The notes under the pieces are model-generated. The model was not told where the DNA came from. It was given only the letters and a program-made list of their open reading frames with translations, and ran no database searches. Made by a program: the position numbers and the translations under genes. A stretch of DNA of 64,000 bases from Alloascoidea hylecoeti (lineage: Eukaryota), in NCBI GenBank assembly GCA_001600815.1, contig BCKZ01000018.1, positions 401,974-465,973 on the forward strand. Direction: 5' to 3'. Positions 15,411-59,836 of this stretch are shown here, in pieces (position 1 is the first letter of the stretch; each line of letters opens with the position of its first letter).

Positions 15411-17507
15411 ATGGCTTTGCAGAACCTGAAAAACTTCATCCGTCGTGGACGCCAGGCCTATGACAGCCCGTCGACCGTCCTCACCACCGACCCGGTCATG
15501 GGCCTAAACTCCCATTCTCAGATAGATAGTACCGTAGATCAAAGTCAAAATCAATCCCATGCGGACAATCAACCACAGTCTTCGAGTCCCCCTCATCCTA
15601 CTTCGACCACCCCTGTCAAAGAACTTCCTGATACTCCTACTGGTGCTGATTTATATAATGAAGCCGCTAACAGGATAGTACAAGAAGAAGAAGCTAAAAA
15701 ATCGAAAATGCCAACGTATCCGGGTTTAGATAACTATTTACTATTAGATCAAATGGGAGAGTAAGTATTTTGTACTTTTATTTTTCATGAACCTATCTTT
15801 CTAATCAATTTTATCATCTTTTTTTTTAATTTTTTTTTTTTTTTTCATTGCCTTTTCTTAGGGGTGCATTCTCGATTGTTTATCGTGCTCAAGATTTAAC
15901 CACAAAAGAATTTGTGGCGGTAAAAGTTATTAAAAAATATGAAATGGATGCTATTCAGGTATGTTTTTTTGTTTTTTTTATTTATTATCATATTCATTTT
16001 CAAATTCATTATTTTATTTTTGATTTTGTTTATTTTGTTTTTGTTTTTGTTTTTTTTTTTGTTTTTTTTTTAATTTAATTTCTATATTTTGTTTTGATTT
16101 ATGTTCGCTCACATTTATTTATGTTTTAATTTTAAAAAGGCTGAGAAAGTCCTTGGTAGAGAAGGTAAAAGGGCTAGAGAATTGGTTAAGGTTGTTTATA
16201 TTTTTGAAATTTTATTTATATTTGTCTTTTATTAACTTCATCTTTATTCATATTTATTCATATTTATTCATTTTTCTCTCTTCCTTTTATTTTAATCTTT
16301 TATTTTTTTAATCTTTTATTATTTATTGTCATCAAATTACTAAATACTAACATAAAAATGAATATAGAAATCAAGTATCTTAAAAGAAGTAGCAATCATG
16401 AGACAATTACGACATCGAAACATTGTATCATTTTATAGATTTATTGAAGCAAATCAATATTATCATATAATTCAAGAATTAGTACCAGGTGGTGAATTAT
16501 TTCAAGAAATTGTTAGATTAACATATTTTTCTGAAAATTTATCTCGTCATGTAATTAGACAAGTTGGTGAAGCTGTACGTTATTTACATGAAGAAGCAGG
16601 TATTGTTCATCGTGATATAAAACCAGAAAATTTATTATTTTATCCAATTGAATTTAAACCATCAAAAAAGCAAGTTTTCAGAAAAGGTGATGATCCAAGT
16701 CAAAAAGTTGATGAAGGTGAATTTTTACCAGGTATTGGATCTGGTGGAATTGGAATTATAAAATTGGCAGATTTTGGTTTATCAAAACAAGTTTGGGATA
16801 GTAAAACGAAAACTCCATGTGGTACTGTTGGTTATACTGCACCAGAAATTGTTCGAGATGAAAGATATACAAAATCTGTTGATATGTGGGCAATTGGTTG
16901 TGTTTTATATACAATATTATGTGGTTTCCCACCATTTTATGATGAAAATATTGAAACATTAACTGAAAAAGTTGCAAAAGGTCAATATACTTTTTTAAGT
17001 CCATGGTGGGATGATATTAGTAAAGATGCAAAAGATTTAGTATCTCATTTATTAACGGTTGATCCTGATAAAAGATTTACAATTGATGAAATGTTAAATC
17101 ATAAATGGATGAAACAAGGTACTGTTTTAAAAGATAATGCTTCTGATTATAGACAATTAGTTAAACCTTTAGCAAATACTTCAATAAAATCACCTGCAGC
17201 AGTAACATTAAGAGAAATTTTTGATGTTTCAAATGCTGTTCATAGAATGGAAGAAGAAGGTGCATTAAGGAAAGGTGGTGGTAATTTAGGAATGTTAAAT
17301 GAATATGAAGAAGATAGTGATGATGATCATGATGAAGAATTAACAATTCAATTTGAACCAAATTCAAGTCGTTCTCGGGGTCGTGGAAGGAAACCAAGAG
17401 TTTTTGATTTAAGTTTGGATGGTGCAACACTTTTGGAACGACGTAAAAAAAAAAATAATACAATTGATATGAATTTGAATTTTGATGATAATAAATTAAA
17501 AGTGTGA
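15411..17507 (+). CDS. RCK2: MAPK-activated CAMK kinase Rck2/Srk1; exons 15411-15760, 15862-15958, optional 16140-16190, 16368-17507
   Basis: MALQNLKNFIRRG N-terminus, spliced GEGAFSIVY, VAVKVIKK, HRDIKPENLLF, the Rck-specific VDEGEFLPGIGSGGIGIIKLADFGLSK and FDLSLDGATLLERRK. Confidence 0.93.
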
Positions 17508-18967: not shown

Positions 18968-19959
18968 TTAATAAAATGGAGAAAATGGAATCAATCCAGA
19001 TTTTCTAAAACCATTATTAATATTTTCTTTAATTAATGAAAATTTTCTTGCTTTATTTAAACATAAAATAAATTCAGGTTTTTTAACTTTTGATAAACCT
19101 AATGATAAAATTAAATCCATTTCATAAACCATTTTATATTTTAATGGTCCATAAATTGATAAATCTAATGGTTGTAAAATATGTGATGTACTTGGTGGTA
19201 TAATTAATAATTGAATATTTGAATTTAAACAAAAATTTAAAAATTTACATGTTATATGTGTTGGATGACCATTATAAATTAAAAGTCTTGGTTTTAAATT
19301 TTTATTTGATCCAGAAGTTGATGTTGTACATTTATATCTTGTTTTTTTATCAAATGAATTAACTAACCAATCATAAATTATATGACTATTAGTCCATCCA
19401 TTTTCAGTACAAATAAATTGCCAATTTTCATCAGTTTCAATTGGGAACCAAGATTTATCAATATATTTTCCTTTAAAAATAATATAAGGATCCAATGAAC
19501 TATTATCACCACAAATACATTCTAAAACAGATATATTATCTTCTCTTGAATGATTTATTTTCATTGAACTATCAACAATTGACCATCTTCTTTGAGTTTC
19601 ACCTAATATAAAACCAGTTTCATCAACATTATAAACATTTTCACTTGTAATTCCATATTTAATGATTATTTTTTCATATGTTTTAAACCATCTTTTTAAT
19701 GTTGTTTCTAAATAAGTACTTGATCTATGTTTATCAATTGGTTGACAAACTATTGAAGGTAATTCAGGATGTCTTTTAATAAAACGTTCAATCCAAACTT
19801 TACATGTTCTATAATCTGGAAGTGTTGAAGAAGGTCTATTAATATATTTAGAACTTGAACTTGAACGTGAATTAGTATTTGAATTTGAATGATTATTCAT
19901 AATTTGCCCATTACCATTAATATCCAAAACTCTATAATCATTATTATTATTATTATTAC

Positions 19960-19992
<33 letters not shown>

Positions 19993-20165
19993 AATAGGTT
20001 AAATATGGTTCAGAAAAGTTTAAATTAACATTATTTTGTTGATAAAAATCATTTGTTTGAAGTATTGGGAAACCATTAGTACCAAGTACAGAACCATTTG
20101 AAAAATTAGTATTAAAATCATTTGAATAAATTTGAGAATTATTACGATGATGATGATGATGATGA

Positions 20166-20196
<31 letters not shown>

Positions 20197-20677
20197 GATT
20201 TGAATTTAAATATGCAAATGGTTGGTTTAAATTATATTCCGAAGATGAAGAATTTGATAATTGTGTTGATAAATATGAATCATTTGATGGAGTTAATGAT
20301 AAAGATGGTGATGTAATTGGTAATGATTCTTTACCAGATCTATTATTAAACATTTCTTTAATAAGTTCATAAATATGTCTTGATGTAATAGGATAACCAC
20401 TTCTTGATAAAACTTTAACATATTGAGATAAAAGAGATTCTTCACGGGAAGTTAACATATCATCTTGTAATTGTAACTGTAATTGATTGTGATGATGAAC
20501 TATATTATTGTTTGAATCTTTTGATTTTCTACCTTTAACTCTAAAATACAAAGTTGTGTATGGAATACCATGAGCCCTGGCGGCATCTTTGATGTTTGCA
20601 TGAAGACCATTTTCAAGTTCAGAGATTGCACTTTTTATATTAATCTCTCTTGGAGAGTTTGCATGTTTGGCGGCCAT
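18968..20677 (-). CDS. Domesticated pogo/Fot1 transposase-derived (CENP-B-like) protein: psq HTH, Tc5 HTH and DDE_1 domain
   Basis: NIKDAARAHGIPYTTLYFRVKG, LTSREESLL, WIERFIKRHPEL, IIKYGITSENVYNVDETGF, NGWTN, RLLIYNGHPTH, PPSTSHILQPLD and GFRKSGLIPF. Intact ORF with polyQ/H/N inserts and no terminal repeats seen. Confidence 0.9.
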
Positions 20678-21032
20678 TGTTGCTATTGTTTGCTATTGTT
20701 ATTATTGTTTGATTGTGATCATAAAAAGAAGGAATTGGGGACATTTTATAAGTTTCTTGGAGTGGAAAAGATTGACATATTTTCTGTGCATATGAACAAC
20801 GGATTGGGAATTATTATCTTGAAATGAGCTGCAGCATGCATTGAAGAAGGCTGTCCAACTTTTATACGGAGAAGATCCCTTCTAATTACCTTCTAGAAAC
20901 GCGGAAGAACATTGGAAGAATATCAAAAGAACACAGCCTTCTGCAATACGCTTCTCTGCATGCTTCGGTGCATACACCCGTCCCCCTGTTATCCATATAT
21001 TGTCTTTTTCCGGACATCCAGACACAATAACT

Positions 21033-23266
21033 ATGTTAATGCATCGCACATTGAACTATGCACTGCTGCTATTTACGCTGTTTATCCACAATTCACAGAC
21101 GTCTTACGCCCCTTACGAGGTCGACTGCCCGTTGACCTCCGTCGTCAGGCCCGCAAAGGTATACGCGATACCCAACCTACAATCCTCTTTTTGTGACTAA
21201 TGCCGTTTTAGGACCTGGGTGCGGACGAAAAGATTTATATAGATAAGCGCCATGCAATCACAAGAAATGCTCTTCACTGGTTTTTCCACAAGATCGATTT
21301 TAACACTTCCGTCGATTTTGACGTTGATACCTTCATTGACCAATCTTATAACGTGATACCACCAGCTCATGAAGAAGAAGAAGAAGTTTATTCTCCAATA
21401 AATATAGGAATCGCGCTTTCTGGTGGTGGGTTTAGGGCAATGTTACATGGCGCTGGGTGTATCTCAGCTTTAGATGGCCGTTCAAACTCTCATGATACAA
21501 ACAGAAACAGACAGGTTTCAACTTTGGGAGGTTTATTACAATCTTCTTCTTATATTGTTGGTGTTTCTGGCGGTTCTTGGGCTTTATCTTCCCTTGTTGT
21601 TAATGATTTTCATACCATTGAACAAATATCTAAGTGGAACTTATCTTCAAGTATATTTATGGGAATCCCTGATGTTAAAGTTAGACATCCAACAACTGAA
21701 GATCCTTCAAATATTTTAAATGGAGATGGATTATCTGATATTTTATCACATCAAACAACAATGATGATGAATAATAAAGATAAAGATAAAGATAAAGATA
21801 AAGATAAAGATAATGTTAATGTTAAAACAAAACCAAATCTTGTAAAATCATTATTTAAAAGATTAAAAAATAAATTTGATAACAAATATAAAACTGCAAA
21901 TAATGATTATAAAAAATTAAATACAGTAACTAATACTTTTAAAGAAACTCTTTCATATTATTTAAATTTACATCTTCAAGTTGAAGAAAAAAGAAAAGCA
22001 AAATTTAGTGTTTCATTAACTGATTATTGGGGTAGAGCATTATCATCAAAATTATTTTTAAATCAACAATTAACAAAATCAATGACAATTAGTGATATAT
22101 CAAATTTATCATCATTTAAAAATTTTAAACAACCATTTCCAATTTTTATATCAAATGCAAGATCTCCAATTGATCCTGATAAAGATGCTGATAGTATAAC
22201 TTCTAAAATTTTTGAATTTTCTCCATTTGAATTTGGTAGTTGGGATTATAAATTACATGCTTTTTTAGATATTAAATATTTAGGTTCAAAAATAAATCAA
22301 GGTAAACCAAATAAATGTGTTAATGGTTATGATAATATTGGTTTTCTTGTTGGGACATCATCATCATTATTTAATAAAGTATTTACTTTTTTATATAATG
22401 CATTAAATAATGCAGAAAAAGAGCAAGAAGAAGAAGAACAAAAATTAAATTTAAATAGAGATGATAAAAATACAAAAAAATTTTTAAAAGCAATTTCAAA
22501 AACAATTCAATTATTTGGAAATTTTAAAAAATATCCTGATTATGCAATATTTGATCCAAATCCATTTTTTAATTATATTGATAGAGGAATTAAAAGTGAT
22601 ATTTTAAATTCTAAAAAATTATATTTAGTTGATGGTGGTGAAGATGGACAAAATATTCCTTTTAATCCTTTATTACAACCACAAAGAAAATTAGATATTA
22701 TATTAGCAACTGATTCAACAGCAGATTTAAATAATTGGCCAAATGGTACAACTTTACAATTTAGTTCAAGAAGATATCATGGTAATAATATTTATACTCC
22801 ATATAGATGGTATAATGGTATTAAAAAAAGTTTATTCCCTTATGTTCCATCAACTGAAGAATTTCTTGAAATGAATTTACATCAAAAACCAAGTTTTTTT
22901 GGATGTGATGTTAATAATTCATATCCAACTTTATCTAATCAAGTTGGTGAATTTGAATATCCTGAACATGATGAATATAATTCAAATTTTCAAATACCTC
23001 CATTAATTGTTTATATACCAAATTCACAATATTCTTTTCTTTCAAATACTTCAACATTTAAATTAACATATTCCGAAGATGAAAAAGATAAAATGATCAA
23101 GAATGGATTTGATGTAATGTCACAAGGAAATAATACAAATTGGTCAACATGTATTGGATGTGCTATATTACATAGAGCAATCATGAGACAGAGAACAAAT
23201 CCTCCTGATATATGCAGAGAATGTTTTAAGCAATATTGTTGGAATCCACCAATTGGGATAATTTAG
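21033..23266 (+). CDS. SPO1: Meiotic phospholipase B-like protein Spo1; exons 21033-21158 and 21212-23266
   Basis: Signal peptide followed by SYAPYEVDCP. Intron GTATAC...GACTAAT...TTAG. Motifs IALSGGGFRAML, GVSGGSW, SLTDYWGRALS, FEFSPFEFGSWD and VDGGEDGQNIP, with no GPI tail. Neighbours match YNL012W-YNL011C-YNL010W. Confidence 0.85.
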
Positions 23267-52367: not shown

Positions 52368-53408
52368 ATGAAGTATTCATCAGCTATCTTAACTCTCTCA
52401 GGTGTAACCTCAGTATTTGCTTGTGAAGCTTTCGATAACTTTAACTCAGAATATAGTCAGTATGGATCTAATTCTGATTCCGATTCCAATGAAGGTTACT
52501 ATGATTGGAGTGGCAGTGAAAACTCCGGTAATACTATAGCTACGGTTACCGCTGCAGTCGCTACCCAAAAATTCTCTTGGGGTGATTATAGTGATTTCAT
52601 ATCGAAGGTTTCATACGATGCTTCTAATGTTGCCGAAACCCTTGGAATCACATTATCTCTTGGTCATTTAGAAACCGCTGCATCAACTGAAGTTCCTTAC
52701 ATTATTTCATCTATCATCTCTATTTTACAAAGTGCAGATGCTACTGCAACAGTAACTGGTGGTATTGTTGGTTCTACAGCTACCGCTACCCCCGTTGCAA
52801 CCTTAAGTCAAGGCTTAACAACTTTGGAGACATCAGTTACAAATTTACAAGCATCTAGTACCATAGAAGAAGAAGATTCCACCGTCGTTCAGTACACAAC
52901 CGTTCCCACTGTTGTTACAGCATTCACTACATATTGTCCAGCTGCAACTGAATTGACCATCAATGATGAGACAATTACTGTAACAGCTGCTACATATATA
53001 ACTATTACAAGTTGTCCAAATGGATGCACTATTACTACCAGTATTCCAGTTAACTCTTACACTTCAATCAAAGCTACAGCTTTAACCTCAGAGGCTACAA
53101 TTGGAGAATCATCAACCGAAGAGGAAACAGTTTATAGTACTGGTACTGTCGTTTTAACCTCATCAGTTTCTCAAACCTTAACCTCAGCCAGCACATCAAC
53201 TGAAATAGAGGAGGAAACAGTTTACAGTACTGGTACCGTCGTTTTGACCTCATCAGTTGCCCAAAACTTAACCTCACCTAGCACTTCATTAACTGCAGAA
53301 AACTCAACCTCACCTACCCTTGATGTTGCAACCGGAATGGGAAGCAATACAAATGTTTTTGGTGGATTGATTGGTGCTGCTCTTGGCTTCTGTGTTATGT
53401 TATTATAA
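52368..53408 (+). CDS. Ser/Thr-rich GPI-anchored cell wall protein with a Sed1/Spi1-type Cys repeat
   Basis: Signal peptide, TVVTAFTTYCPAATELTINDETITVTAATYITITSCPNGCTIT, two copies of EEETVYSTGTVVLTSSV and a hydrophobic GPI-signal C-terminus. Confidence 0.88.
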   Translation: MKYSSAILTLSGVTSVFACEAFDNFNSEYSQYGSNSDSDSNEGYYDWSGSENSGNTIATVTAAVATQKFSWGDYSDFISKVSYDASNVAETLGITLSLGHLETAASTEVPYIISSIISILQSADATATVTGGIVGSTATATPVATLSQGLTTLETSVTNLQASSTIEEEDSTVVQYTTVPTVVTAFTTYCPAATELTINDETITVTAATYITITSCPNGCTITTSIPVNSYTSIKATALTSEATIGESSTEEETVYSTGTVVLTSSVSQTLTSASTSTEIEEETVYSTGTVVLTSSVAQNLTSPSTSLTAENSTSPTLDVATGMGSNTNVFGGLIGAALGFCVMLL

Positions 53409-53870: not shown

Positions 53871-55366
53871 ATGACCAGCAACATGACAAGCAACACCAAC
53901 AGTCCCGTAATTGCGATTGACGTGAGAAAGTATTCGTTTTTGAAAAATGCAGATCCAACTCCTTATGGCCTTTTCTGTGTTCCCAGTTCCCAACAAAAGA
54001 GTAAATCAAATCAAGATTGGACTCATTACCCTTTCAGAGGCGACATCTCGTTAACTTTCATCCCTCTTAATATACCTACTATAGCCCCTTCTCCTCCCGC
54101 GGTTGCAATAAAAGTGGCCTGGAAAACAACTATTCTAGAAGAGCTTGATCTTTCACAATTGTTCTCCACCTTTGCGGATCTTGTGTCGATTGGAAATCCA
54201 CCGATATTGATTGTATCAAAGTCACCTTGCATTGGTGTGAAATATCTTATTAAGAACTCAGATAACACTATAATGGTTTGTATCTACTTTTTTATTTTTT
54301 ACTTATTTATAAGAGGCTTAAGTTAATGTTTTTACCCCATATTAGACTCATCGTTTTCAATTAAGATTTCCTACAGATGTTGAATTTCAGAAAGCATTAG
54401 TTATATTTACAAAATATGGAGTAATGTGCCATGAAGCCACTAATGTGATTATGACCTCAAAACAGAATAAACCAAAGGCTCAAAATTCAATTTCAATTGC
54501 TGCAGAAACATCCGAAAACACAAAGTCTTTAGATACTCAAGAACAATGTTCATATACCCAATTAGGATTAGATTTAATGACTCCTACGGATTCTCAATAT
54601 GATTCACAGTTTCAACACCAACAAATAAACTCCCCACATAGCAGCTATAAACATAATGATAAGCATGAGAATATAAATAAATCTGCCTCACAAGAATCTA
54701 TGCAACAAGATCACTTTCACAAACAATGCCATTCAGTTGAGAGTATGCCGATACCTTTTAGTTTCACGCAACCTTCTGCGAAACCCCGACCTTTATCTTG
54801 GTCTAATCCAAAGCTTTCAAATCTTACTACCAATACTAATACCATTTCAGGTACAAACATTAATAATGTTCTTGATTCTCCGATCCAAATAGATGCGCAG
54901 AGTTTAAAGAATATTTCAACACCATACACTGCACAATTTAAAGAAACAGTGTCTCATGGTTCTTTATTGACTCCAGATACTTCTATGACGACTCCAACGC
55001 GTCTCCCATCCATCAGAAAGAAACCAAAATTGCAATTTTTAAATCCGATATCTAGTCCCGTGGTTGGGGTTGAGGTTGGAGTTGCCAATGAAAGTGGAAC
55101 AATGACTCCTATTAATCAATTGGAAAATACCAAACAGATCCAGGTGTATGAAAGTGAAGACTCAGCCCTTCCATTTAATTTTGATGATATCGATAAACAG
55201 AAAGTTATACGATTATTGCAAGATCCTAAGTTTATTGATTATGTTTGTATCATGAATTATTTCTATATTTACTGTTCAATTATACCCCTAGAAATCAAAC
55301 TAACGACCCCATTTTTCATAGGCTGAGAAAATAGAATTGCTCCTTACCGATTTAAAGAACCATTGA
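53871..55366 (+). CDS. REC114: Meiotic DSB protein Rec114/Rec7; exons 53871-54275, 54346-55242 and 55322-55366
   Basis: Spliced PH-like N-terminal domain (KYS...WTHY...KVAWKTTILEELDL...IVSKSPCIGVKY...M-THRFQLRF...EFQKALVIF), a disordered middle, and C-terminal LLQDPKFIDY-AEKIE. Both introns are phase 0 with GTTTGT donors. Confidence 0.78.
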
Positions 55367-56507: not shown

Positions 56508-58575
56508 TTAATATGAACTACTCTTATGTTTAGGAGTATATTGAAATTTATCATTTGTTTTCCCTAAATACATCTCAGTAATTTTAATCCAATCTTTATA
56601 ATCTCTACTCCCCAATAAAGTTTCCATTTCATTTCTTCCTTGCCATTTTGGAGGTCGATCATTTAAATGAGGTGGTAATCTTTCTAAAATTCCAACTGGA
56701 ATATAACGATGAGAAAATGATAAAAATTCACATAAATATCTTCTAGTAATATTAATACCATATTCATCTGTTCCCCAATGTTGTAAACCATATTCAGCAT
56801 ATGCTTTAATATATTCAAGTCTTTCAGTAGCTGATTTATCAAGATATTGTTGTGATTCAATTTCTTCAAATATCCATGGTTTTATGAGTGCGCCTCTAGC
56901 AACCATAACACTATCACAATGAGATTCATTAATTGCATTATTGTAATCTTCATATGTATAAACATCTCCATTACCAATAAACCAGGGTTTACCACCATCT
57001 CTTTCAGTCTTTTCAGCCTCAACTTCAATTAAATCAGCAACTTCTTTGATGTAACTCCAATCACACGTCTTTGTATATCTCTGTTGCCGAGATCTTCCAT
57101 GTAGTGTAATAGCTCTGGCGGTACCATCCTGTACGATTCTTGTAACCAGATTTTTTGCAGTTGGATGATTATCTCTCGTTCCCATTCTAATCTTTATAGT
57201 AACAGGAATATCATCACTAACAGCACTCATTCCATTAGCAATTCTTAATAATCTAGCAGGATTATCAAGTAAGCCGGAACCAGCACCTTGTCTATAAATC
57301 AAATCAATTGGACAACCACAATTTAAATTTAATTCCGAAACGTTTGTCGTTAATTTTGCAATTGCTTCAGCTGCTTTTGTTGCTTGCCAATGTTTTGCGG
57401 CAGCAATTTGAACACCAAATCCACCAATTTCTGAAGAATGTGCACGAGGTAAAGCCCATTCAGATTTATTACCTTGAATTAAAGGTAATGCTAATGCCAT
57501 TTCACTATATGTTACATCAGCTCCTAATGTTTTCATTAATCTACGGTATGGTAAATTACCAACTGTTGTTAATGGTGAAACAATTTTCGCACCTTTTAAA
57601 TATATTTTCTTTTTTTCACTTGGGAGAAATGGTGGTTCAATGTAACTTGACATTTCATTTTTGGTCTCTTCTCTTTTTGTATCATTGTCAATAATAATAT
57701 TTTGTTCAACTTTTTCACTCTGTTCAACTTTCTCCTTTTCTTCGTCTTTATCATTTTTCTCATTATTTTCATTCTGTTTTTTCTCTCCATTATTAGTTTT
57801 ATCTGAATCTCTATCATTCCTAATAACCATAGAATCAAGATATGATATATAAGCTTCTGCTTTTTCTAATGGGAATTTTTTCCTTTGTAAATTATTTTGT
57901 ATTTTTGTTGGAACTCTATTAATTTCAAAATCACTTTCAGCTGCCTTTTTAACTTTTTCTTCATCAACAATAAGTTTCATATTCTCTTTATCAAAATGAG
58001 TAAATAACCATCTACATCTAACACCATTTGAACAAATACCAACTTTTTGAAAAGATGGACAAATACCATCTAAATCAATTGGTTTTGAATCAATATATGC
58101 TTTTATATCATGTGAAAATCTACAATTTTCAGAACCAAATTGACATTCTTTACCATTTGCAATTGGATCACAAATTTTAATATCATCTTTTGTAAATTGT
58201 TGATCTAATTCTCTTTTTTTATTTTGACCTCTTTGCTTCTTTTTATTATTTCTTTTATTTTTTTTATTTCCAAGACCTGCTATATCATTCAAATCTTTAT
58301 ATTTATCTCCTTCAGCTTCATCATCTCGAATGATTGGCTCTAGAACTTCCTTGTCTACAATATACCTTTTAAGAAAGAAAAAGAAAGATTGATAATTAGT
58401 TATAGTTATTAGATTATTTATCGACAAATACATACTGTTTTTTAATAGCTGCTATTCCTTTAACATAACTATTATCATTATCATTATCGATTTTAACCTT
58501 CTTGGTAATAGCATCAGCATCAGCATCAGCATCAGTTACATTTTTGGCGGATCTTTTTAAATTGTCATTATCCAT
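56508..58575 (-). CDS. DUS3: tRNA-dihydrouridine(47) synthase; exons 58575-58436 and 58365-56508
   Basis: GIAAIKKQ-YIV across a GTATGT...AAG intron, CCCH fingers, SPLTTVGNLPYRRL, LNCGCPID, TLHGRSRQQRY and final PKHKSSSY. Confidence 0.95.
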
Positions 58576-58732
58576 TTTTAAATATAAAAGATGTTGAATT
58601 TTGAATATTATAAGAAACTAATTGAAGATGGAAATTTTTTAATGCAGAGCAATGCACACCTCCAAAAAACCTTTAAAAAGTTTCAAGTCACCAAAATATA
58701 AATATCTGTAGCTAGCTATATGATACAGGAAT

Positions 58733-59836
58733 ATGACATTAGAAAATAATGATGATAATCCAAATCATTATACACATGATGAACTTATCAGACAAATTTC
58801 AAAAAGGAATCTAGATGATAGGCCAATAAACATAATTAAATCCAAAATGTTAAAACATGAAACGGTTACAATAGCAGCCCCAATGGTGAGATATTCCAAA
58901 TTACCATTTCGAGCATTATTAAGGCATTATAAAGTTGATGTAGTGTATTCACCAATGATGTTAGCGAGAGAATTTGTTAGAAATCAAGTTGCAAGAGATT
59001 CAGAATTTACAACGAACTTAAACGACCACCCATTACAAATCCAGATAGGTGTTAATAACTCTTTGGATATAATCCGAATGGTTGATTTAATATCAGATTA
59101 TGTCGATGGTATTGGAATAAATTGTGGCTGTCCAATAAAAGATCAAGTTAGAGAAGGAATTGGTGCTGCATTAATGACCCAACCAGAAAATGTAGCACAA
59201 ATGGTTAAAGTTGTTAAAGAGAAGTATGGAGATAAAATAAGTATTGAGGTTAAAATAAGGATTCATAAAGATATCAATGAAACAATAAGATTTGTTAAAT
59301 TAGTTGAAGTTGCAGGAGTTGATTATATAACGGTTCATGGGCGACGAAAATCCCAAAGAAATACCGAACCTGTTAATCTTGAAGCTATAAAAACCGTCGT
59401 TGAACACGCAAAGGTACCAATAATTGCAAACGGCGACTGTTTCAGTTACGAAGACATTGATCGTATAACTAGATATACTGGAGTTGCTGGTGTAATGGCG
59501 GCCCGTGGTCTATTAGAAAATCCAGCCTTATTTGCTGGTTTTAAAGTAACCCCATGGCACGCAGTTGAGAGATTTTGGGATTATTCAACAGCATATGGAT
59601 TACCATTTAGATTAACCCAACATCATTTCAGTGAAATGTTAGTTAAATTAATATCAAGGCAGGAAAAATCTGATATGAATACGTGCAATAATCTAGTTGA
59701 ACTGATTGCTTGGTTTGATGAAAGATTTATTTTAAAAAGATCTAATGAAGAAGGTTTTGCAACGGCTGTTGAGGTACCATGGAGAAAGGAATATCTTAGA
59801 AAAGTACAATTACAAGAATCTGAATTAGAATTATGA
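58733..59836 (+). CDS. DUS4: tRNA-dihydrouridine(20a/20b) synthase
   Basis: IAAPMVRYSKLPFR, AREFVRNQVARDSEFTT, GINCGCPIKDQVREGIGAALM, ITVHGR and IANGDCF. Confidence 0.95.
   Translation: MTLENNDDNPNHYTHDELIRQISKRNLDDRPINIIKSKMLKHETVTIAAPMVRYSKLPFRALLRHYKVDVVYSPMMLAREFVRNQVARDSEFTTNLNDHPLQIQIGVNNSLDIIRMVDLISDYVDGIGINCGCPIKDQVREGIGAALMTQPENVAQMVKVVKEKYGDKISIEVKIRIHKDINETIRFVKLVEVAGVDYITVHGRRKSQRNTEPVNLEAIKTVVEHAKVPIIANGDCFSYEDIDRITRYTGVAGVMAARGLLENPALFAGFKVTPWHAVERFWDYSTAYGLPFRLTQHHFSEMLVKLISRQEKSDMNTCNNLVELIAWFDERFILKRSNEEGFATAVEVPWRKEYLRKVQLQESELEL

What the first reader, a model, noticed from the sequence alone, without database searches (positions are those of the whole stretch)
18968..20677. 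Domesticated pogo/Fot1 transposase with a D-N35-D triad and transcription-factor-like polyQ/H/N inserts
Seen: an intact 569-aa ORF with both CENP-B-type HTHs and a DDE_1 domain. The first Asp (VDETG, 19622-19624) and third Asp (QPLD, 19163-19165) are kept. The second is Asn (LLIYNGH, AAT at 19271-19273, normally LLILDGH), with 35 residues between it and the third. About 180 aa of polyS/Q/H/N sequence is inserted in frame inside the second HTH, codon usage is host-like, and no terminal inverted repeats are visible. Known: fission-yeast Abp1/Cbh1/Cbh2, yeast Pdc2 and mammalian CENP-B are domesticated pogo transposases. Inference: this is a catalytically dead, host-adopted DNA-binding regulator, perhaps for transposon silencing or centromere function, and possibly an independent domestication.
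Basis: partly seen in the sequence, partly recalled or inferred. Interest (0 to 1): 0.7.

Follow-up and report, generated by a model that had tools for sequence, protein, structure and literature searches.

The report
Tamed Fot transposase gene pair, yeast
A budding yeast keeps two old copies of a gene descended from a Fot-type "jumping gene" enzyme that has lost a key DNA-cutting residue but kept its DNA-gripping part and gained a long floppy loop, so it most likely now works as a host gene regulator, one more case of a known kind of gene recruitment.

Summary
Observation confirmed: intact 569-aa ORF with triad D352-N469-(35)-D505, a ~170-aa insert inside the second HTH, no TIRs, and codon use like its neighbours. 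Domestication is well supported. A dispersed paralog (G000:C15, 69% identical in the core) shares the Asn, two further losses of near-invariant residues, the insert and the stop position. Between the two, dN is 0.22 against dS 1.05-1.3, and HTH1 dN is 0.06. The genome's true Fot transposons are frameshifted relics with TIRs. Corrections: the gene is not single-copy; the donor is Fot-family (HTH_psq, DD35D), so it is not a CENP-B, Abp1 or Pdc2 family member; the polyQ/H/N runs are strain-variable microsatellites absent from the paralog; nothing supports a silencing or centromere role. Best reading: a non-catalytic, sequence-specific DNA-binding regulator whose dead DDE fold is kept as a scaffold (inferred). 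No orthologs, synteny, RNA or function could be tested, because the host has no close relative in the databases. The scan already noted the C15 paralog (e1-7785309) and a similar case in another genome (e1-7518501). New variant of a known kind; interest 0.38.

The parts
18968..20677 (-). Intact 569-aa ORF: Fot-family transposase-derived host gene
   Evidence: paralog at G000:C15 (L002:1492-3114)
20519..20656 (-). HTH1 (pipsqueak-type, aa 8-53); 91% identical to the paralog, dN 0.058 against dS 1.75
20339..20458 (-). HTH2 (Tc5/CENP-B-type) helices 1-2, aa 74-113
   Evidence: family profile matches CENP-B 1hlv, E 1.6e-5
19820..20338 (-). In-frame disordered insert (aa 114-286) between helix 2 and the recognition helix of HTH2; homologous to the paralog's insert; carries strain-variable Q/H/N/S runs
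   Evidence: (local score 116; 0 of 1000 shuffles reach it)
19643..19819 (-). HTH2 recognition helix (W295..F299..KRHP) and linker helix, aa 287-345
18971..19642 (-). DDE_1/RNase H-like domain (aa 346-569), ending exactly at the protein's C-terminus; no Fot C-terminal tail
   Evidence: Mos1 catalytic domain Z 15.8, rmsd 3.1 A, 188 aligned
19622..19624 (-). First catalytic Asp (D352), kept
19271..19273 (-). Second catalytic position changed to Asn (N469, AAT); also Asn in the paralog, in P0005, and no other letter in metagenome contigs covering it
19163..19165 (-). Third catalytic Asp (D505), kept
20678..21032 (.). 355-bp divergent intergenic region shared with the phospholipase B gene; no TIR

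Best explanation
A Fot-family (pogo superfamily, DD35D) transposase was captured by an ancestor of this yeast. It lost its TIRs, its ~160-aa C-terminal tail and catalytic competence (D469N, S473T, H496S), gained a disordered loop inside HTH2, and then duplicated into two unlinked genes (C18, this finding; C15). Shown: the anatomy, the shared derived changes, purifying selection after inactivation, and no TIRs (about 0.9 for domestication). Inferred: the tandem HTHs bind a specific host DNA motif, the same for both paralogs; the dead RNase H fold is kept as a structural or protein-contact scaffold; the S/N/Q/aromatic insert is a disordered effector or partner-binding region. The protein most likely acts like Pdc2/Rag3, as a sequence-specific transcription regulator.
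For: Paralog: 248 of 369 core residues identical; dN 0.217 against dS 1.27 (NG86) or 1.05 (4-fold sites, F81); HTH1 dN 0.058; DDE dN 0.21 against dS 0.94. A neutral simulation kept the frame open in 0 of 2000 runs at 0.1 substitutions per site or more. 137 of 149 nearest relatives keep DDD; of 37 near-invariant columns 29 are kept in both paralogs, and both share D469N, S473T and H496S. DNA homology between the paralogs stops at the stop codon and the flanks are unrelated. GC3s matches the neighbours and not the relics. Resident Fot relics show TIRs, stops and frameshifts. Precedent: Pdc2 and Rag3 are described as pogo-related yeast transcription factors (PMC2134285, passages).
Against: No expression, binding or phenotype data. 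No ortholog in another species, so there is no synteny or between-species dN/dS, and selection is measured between paralogs only. dS is near saturation. The insert is weakly acidic (5-6% D/E), unlike classic acidic activation domains (own knowledge), and may merely be tolerated. The DDE domain is more conserved than a pure DNA-binding role needs: SETMAR's drifts at Ka/Ks 0.7 (PMC6326780, passages). 3 of 149 ordinary relatives also read DND, so the Asn alone is not diagnostic.
Confidence: 0.6

Rival explanations
1. Abp1/CENP-B-like chromatin organiser: the protein binds LTRs, transposon ends or centromeric repeats and silences or clusters them.
For: Precedent: Abp1/Cbh1/Cbh2 repress Tf2 and bind LTRs (PMC7175516, passages). 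This genome carries at least three decayed Fot-like families. Tandem HTHs match CENP-B's DNA-binding domain.
Against: An HTH-region search hit only C18, C15 and C3, and no resident transposon (3 matches among 8 candidates). Family A copies are much younger (pS 0.07-0.28) than the paralog split, so they spread while the gene existed. There is no C-terminal extension that could hold a CENP-B-type dimerisation domain. The donor family differs from Abp1's Lemi.
Confidence: 0.17
2. Altered-activity nuclease: D352 and D505 plus the intact fold support residual nicking or structure-specific cleavage used in a host rearrangement or repair step (SETMAR-like or Kat1/alpha3-like).
For: Two Asp are kept with exact 35 spacing in both paralogs; the DDE domain is under purifying selection; the fold is intact (Z 15.8 to Mos1). 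Catalytic domestications exist in yeasts (bioRxiv 10.1101/2022.12.06.519325, passages).
Against: The second Asp, 100% conserved in the DDD rows, is Asn; S473 and H496 are also lost in both paralogs. In SETMAR a D-to-N change plus other mutations largely abolished nuclease activity in two groups' in-vitro work (PMC6326780, passages).
Confidence: 0.12
3. Not a host gene: two related transposon copies that diverged while mobile and died recently, or an open frame kept by chance.
For: No RNA or phenotype evidence; no orthologs; selection on active transposases can mimic a low dN/dS.
Against: Both copies share the same inactivating changes, insert and stop position, so their divergence came after inactivation. 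No TIRs. Codon use has ameliorated. The frame would not survive neutrally. Genuine relics here carry 1-2 stops and 2-5 frameshifting gaps in each of 7 pairwise comparisons.
Confidence: 0.05

Closest known systems
Fot/Fot-like family transposases of the pogo superfamily (Fot1, Pot2, Tan1, Flipper, Aft1; Fotyl in Yarrowia) as defined in PMC7386202
   Same: HTH_psq plus Tc5-type HTH plus DDE_1; 35-residue spacing; 30-41% identity in the core; nests among fungal Fot-type hits in the tree
   Different: Second Asp is Asn; no TIR or TSD; C-terminal tail absent; ~170-aa insert in HTH2; two dispersed old copies instead of a family of near-identical copies
Yeast Pdc2/Rag3 (pogo-related transcription factors; PMC2134285 passages)
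   Same: Degenerate pogo transposase kept as a probable DNA-binding regulator in a budding yeast; low-complexity effector-like region
   Different: The genome has a separate Pdc2-like gene (G000:C4; label recalled from its N-terminus, not tested) with no significant BLAST match to this protein (E 1.3); here the low-complexity region lies inside HTH2, not at the C-terminus
Fission-yeast Cbp1/Abp1, Cbh1, Cbh2, Cbt1-6 and Dipodascaceae Cbt7 (bioRxiv 10.1101/2022.12.06.519325)
   Same: Dispersed paralogous domesticated pogo transposases with degenerate triads
   Different: Those derive from the Lemi family; this one is Fot-type, and no LTR or centromere role is shown
Mammalian CENP-B (pogoR-derived) and SETMAR (Hsmar1-derived)
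   Same: Tandem HTH DNA-binding domain kept; SETMAR also has a D-to-N triad change with a conserved DNA-binding domain
   Different: Different donor families; SETMAR's change is at the third Asp and its catalytic domain drifts (Ka/Ks 0.7), whereas here it is the second Asp and the domain is conserved (about 0.2); no SET fusion and no CENP-B-type tail

Membership tests
Fot/Fot-like transposase lineage (descent) | HTH_psq and/or HTH_Tnp_Tc5 DNA-binding domain plus DDE_1 | tested here: met
   (HTH_psq, DDE_1); Tc5 HTH split by the insert but aligned; definition from PMC7386202 passages
Fot/Fot-like transposase lineage (descent) | 35 residues between second and third triad positions | tested here: met
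Fot/Fot-like transposase lineage (descent) | Phylogenetic placement in the Fot clade | tested here: inconclusive
   Nests among fungal DD35D hits, but the hits are mostly unnamed, no reference Fot1 was included, and AU tests rejected neither alternative grouping
Active Fot transposon | Intact DDD triad | tested here: not met
   N469, against DDD in 137 of 149 relatives
Active Fot transposon | TIRs and TA/TAA target duplication | tested here: not met
   the same BLAST approach finds TIRs at resident relics
Domesticated transposase (criteria as applied in PMC4231638, passages; 5 of 6 seen) | No transposon hallmarks in the flanks | tested here: met
Domesticated transposase | Intact coding capacity under functional constraint | tested here: met
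   dN/dS about 0.17-0.21 between paralogs; frame kept in a second isolate's protein P0005
Domesticated transposase | Conserved synteny in related species | not testable with these tools
   G000 has no relatives held; no orthologs found; even FOL2 has no hit above about 82% outside the species
Domesticated transposase | Expression | not testable with these tools
   no RNA holder listed
Domesticated transposase | Biological function shown by mutant | not testable with these tools
   needs experiments
CENP-B / Cbp1(Abp1) family | CENP-B_N or HTH_ABP1_N N-terminal domain and Lemi/pogoR ancestry | tested here: not met
   Pfam gives HTH_psq only; ancestry. No Abp1 or CENP-B sequence was placed in my trees.
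CENP-B / Cbp1(Abp1) family | Binding to centromeric DNA or LTRs | not testable with these tools
   no data
Pdc2/Rag3 | Orthology to Pdc2 | tested here: inconclusive
   No significant match to the genome's own Pdc2-like ORF, which makes orthology unlikely; but that ORF's identity is recalled, no named Pdc2 was compared, and the AU test gave p 0.50

The most novel reading that the evidence does not exclude
This is a lineage-private transcription-factor family built from Fot transposases, a donor family for which my five literature searches found no described domestication in budding yeasts. An effector-like disordered region was grafted into the turn of the second HTH. C18 and C15, together with the more degenerate C3 and C29 genes and two HTH-only genes, would be successive stages of one transposase-to-transcription-factor conversion inside a single genome.
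Probability: 0.3. Interest if true: 0.6.

Novelty: new variant of a known kind. Interest (0 to 1): 0.38.

Why it matters
Domestication of pogo transposases is well known, but the fungal cases are less studied (stated in bioRxiv 10.1101/2022.12.06.519325, passage), and those traced so far come from the Lemi family. A Fot-derived, duplicated gene with a dead but conserved catalytic fold would add a donor family. It would also give a clean test of what the DDE domain does after catalysis is lost, and of whether an HTH works with a ~170-aa loop before its recognition helix. The host is a non-model yeast with no close sequenced relative in these databases, which limits reach.

Tried and rejected
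Insert as an intron or exitron: a GTAAAG...CAG pair would remove 519 nt in frame (my reading). Rejected because it matches none of the usual 5' splice patterns, the paralog has neither signal at those places, the nearest branch-like TACTAAT lies in a stretch deleted in another isolate, and amino-acid motifs in the insert are conserved. No RNA was available to exclude it fully. Whole-genome-duplication ohnologs: none of the non-transposase ORFs in 40 kb around C15 matched a window ORF. Resident-family TIR remnants in the flanks: only 8-16-nt chance matches. Homodimer prediction of aa 287-569: no answer, score 0.00, not evidence either way. Expression: no RNA holder listed; RNA run X8 gave one 35-nt partial piece, uninformative. 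PDB sequence search with the single protein gave only His-tag and low-complexity matches. ESM Atlas gave generic DDE_1 clusters. AU tests could not reject grouping the pair with Pdc2-like plus C21 (p 0.50) or with resident transposons (p 0.47); a third test (pair plus C3 plus C29) did not finish. In the mixture-model tree C3 is sister to the pair at 93/89, unstarred and on a long branch, and all four intact genes were one side of a branch in 12% of 200 bootstrap trees. Within-species polymorphism is too low to test selection (1 substitution in about 800 nt). Literature searches found no description of this gene or of a Fot-derived host gene in budding yeast; I saw listings only, apart from the papers cited, and the library lacks most subscription journals. 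No supplements were read; Table S1 of PMC7386202 and the tables of PMC10799480 may bear on the novelty claim.

Full report
OBSERVATION. The ORF at 18968-20677 (minus strand) encodes 569 aa without a stop. The triad positions are D352 (19622-19624), N469 (AAT, 19271-19273) and D505 (19163-19165), with 35 residues between the last two. Pfam finds DDE_1 (E 1.8e-25) and HTH_psq (E 3.7e-4). The AlphaFold model (12-sequence alignment) shows three N-terminal helices, two more at 77-113, a disordered stretch at 116-283, a helix at 289-302 and a confident catalytic-type domain. That domain matches Mos1 (Z 15.8, rmsd 3.1 A, 188 aligned), Metnase and Sleeping Beauty. A profile of 86 family members matches the CENP-B DNA-binding domain 1hlv (E 1.6e-5). 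The G94-W295 span is 201 aa here and 190 in the paralog, against 24-46 in the 114 relatives that could be measured among 149. No TIR was found. GC3s is 0.049, like the flanking genes (0.030-0.046) and unlike three transposon relic frames (0.31-0.35).

CONTEXT. The host is an AT-rich budding yeast with a 24.8-Mb assembly. Its FOL2 is about 75-82% identical to that of yeasts from many orders, with no closer relative listed, so the absence of orthologs says little about the gene's age. The latter appears to start at 21033 with a signal-peptide exon, leaving a 355-bp shared upstream region.

THE PARALOG. The own-genome search gave 24 matches among 36 candidates. The second is an intact 540-aa ORF on contig C15. 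It shares the Asn, the 35 spacing, the insert position and the last residues before the stop. DNA similarity ends at the stop codon, the flanks are unrelated, and the neighbours are not syntenic. In the core 248 of 369 residues are identical. NG86 gives dN 0.217 and dS 1.27 over 360 codons; HTH1 dN 0.058, DDE dN 0.209 against dS 0.94, insert dN 0.85. Four-fold sites give a distance of 1.05. dS is near saturation, so the ratio (about 0.17-0.21) is rough. A neutral substitution model left the frame open in 4 of 2000 runs at 0.05 substitutions per site and 0 of 2000 at 0.1 or more. Among the 149 best non-self relatives from 1.84 billion representatives, 137 read DDD and 3 read DND. Of 37 columns at least 85% conserved in the DDD rows, 29 are kept in both paralogs, and D469N, S473T and H496S are shared losses; 120 of 149 relatives continue for 60 aa or more (median 162) past the point where both paralogs stop. 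Shared derived losses followed by slow protein divergence mean that selection acted on the already crippled protein. This is the main argument for domestication.

CONTROL: TRUE TRANSPOSONS IN THE SAME GENOME. At least three decayed Fot-like families are present. Family A copies are mostly 80-93% identical with TIRs of about 200 bp. In all 7 pairwise comparisons with one copy there were 1-2 stops and 2-5 frameshifting gaps, with pN/pS 0.35-0.79. The finding looks nothing like these. It does not group with them in the quick tree, although an AU test could not reject such a grouping (p 0.47).

OTHER ISOLATES AND SPECIES. Three searches found only near-identical versions of the two paralogs (P0005, P0006). 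The next hits were ordinary Fot-type transposases at 30-41% identity (1092 against 262 bits). P0005 differs by T122K, I413V and in-frame shortening of the repeats by 19 aa. Both paralogs occur in two wood-decay metagenomes of one study; in X4 the gene shows one substitution in about 800 nt and a 33-base in-frame skip in the insert.

THE INSERT. It is homologous between paralogs (score 116; 0 of 1000 shuffles reach it), with conserved short motifs near its C-terminal end. The paralog has no homopolymer run of five or more, and 4 of 18 other window ORFs carry similar runs. The polyQ/H/N tracts are thus microsatellite expansions on an older S/N/aromatic disordered loop, not evidence of a transcription factor. 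An intron reading was considered and rejected (see Tried and rejected).

FAMILY. PMC7386202 (passages) defines Fot/Fot-like transposases by DD35D and HTH_psq/HTH_Tnp_Tc5, and lists Fot in Pezizomycotina and Basidiomycota; Fotyl shows the family in Yarrowia (PMC5014426, passages). PMC7325037 (passages) also gives DD35D for the groups that include Fot1. Fission-yeast Cbp1/Abp1 and Dipodascaceae Cbt7 derive from Lemi, and CENP-B from pogoR (bioRxiv 10.1101/2022.12.06.519325, passages and section 31 part 2). This protein hits a Fusarium transposase at E 2e-45 but the genome's own Pdc2-like ORF at E 1.3 and the C21 gene at E 0.09 (the Pdc2 label is recalled). An independent domestication is therefore likely, though the AU test did not formally exclude a joint clade (p 0.50). 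PMC10799480 (passages) reports that co-option of transposon domains is relatively frequent in Saccharomycotina, and PMC13548663 (passages) frames DNA-binding versus catalytic co-option.

MECHANISM. Shown: a conserved tandem HTH, a conserved but crippled catalytic fold, a disordered loop, and two stable loci. Inferred: HTH1 is nearly frozen between paralogs (91% identical), as expected if both read the same DNA motif. The DDE domain is constrained (about 0.2, unlike SETMAR's 0.7; PMC6326780, passages), so it probably serves folding or partner binding. The loop is the likeliest effector surface. A Pdc2-like transcription regulator is the best guess (0.6); an Abp1-like silencer (0.17), a residual nuclease (0.12) and a non-functional relic (0.05) are the rivals.

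EARLIER NOTES AND VERDICT. The scan already described a 1623-letter DN35D Fot-type ORF in this genome (e1-7785309; its length equals that of the C15 ORF, so I take it to be the paralog) and a similar case in another genome (e1-7518501). These are AI notes and not independent support; my reading was logged before I saw them. The finding is real and the domestication call is sound. It is a new variant (Fot donor, loop inside HTH2, duplicated) of a well-known kind, with function untested. Interest 0.38.

Noticed in passing
G000:C3:1106386-1107975 (L003, P0003) and G000:C29:112316-114880 (L011, P0004): Two more intact, TIR-untested Fot-derived ORFs (528 and 854 aa) with more fully degenerate triads and low-complexity inserts or tails; C3 is weakly sister to the C18/C15 pair (93/89, long branch). 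Further candidate domestications.
   Followed up: partly
G000:C3:386419 (L052, 456 aa) and G000:C9:406676 (L055, 273 aa): Intact ORFs with HTH_psq plus HTH_Tnp_Tc5 but no DDE domain: possible DNA-binding-only derivatives of Fot transposases.
   Followed up: partly
G000:C21, L033:934-2652 (-), P0154: Intact 572-aa Tigger/Lemi-like ORF with Tc5 HTH, DDE_1, apparently all three Asp, and an acidic C-terminal tract reminiscent of CENP-B/Cbp1; a better candidate for an Abp1/Cbt7-like gene than the finding itself.
   Followed up: partly
G000:C4, L056 (-), 913 aa: Pdc2-like gene (label recalled, not tested) with DDE_1 E 1.4e-35 and polyN tracts.
   Followed up: partly
L004, L007-L010, L014, L018, L048; L005/L013/L049; L012/L016/L020/L043: Three decayed Fot-like DNA transposon families; family A has ~200-bp TIRs starting with a GC-rich hairpin, family B ~47-bp TIRs. 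DNA transposons are described as scarce in budding yeasts (PMC4316626, abstract start only).
   Followed up: partly
window 21033-21212 (+): The phospholipase B gene seems to have an upstream signal-peptide exon (21033-21158) and a short intron with non-consensus signals (GTATAC ... GACTAAT ... TTTTAG).
   Followed up: partly
window 15761-16367 (+): 607-nt canonical intron splitting the kinase gene (ORFs 15411-15764 and 16398-17507 are one gene).
   Followed up: no
window 6068-63537: GC3s varies from 0.03 to 0.26 between genes in blocks, an isochore-like mosaic; the two paralogs differ likewise (0.049 against 0.208).
   Followed up: no
window 52368-53408 (+) and 54424-55326 (+): Two ORFs of 346 and 300 aa with no Pfam match.
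   Followed up: no
window 56508-59836: Two dihydrouridine synthase genes (a DUS3-like CCCH type and another Dus) lie head to head about 300 bp apart.
   Followed up: no
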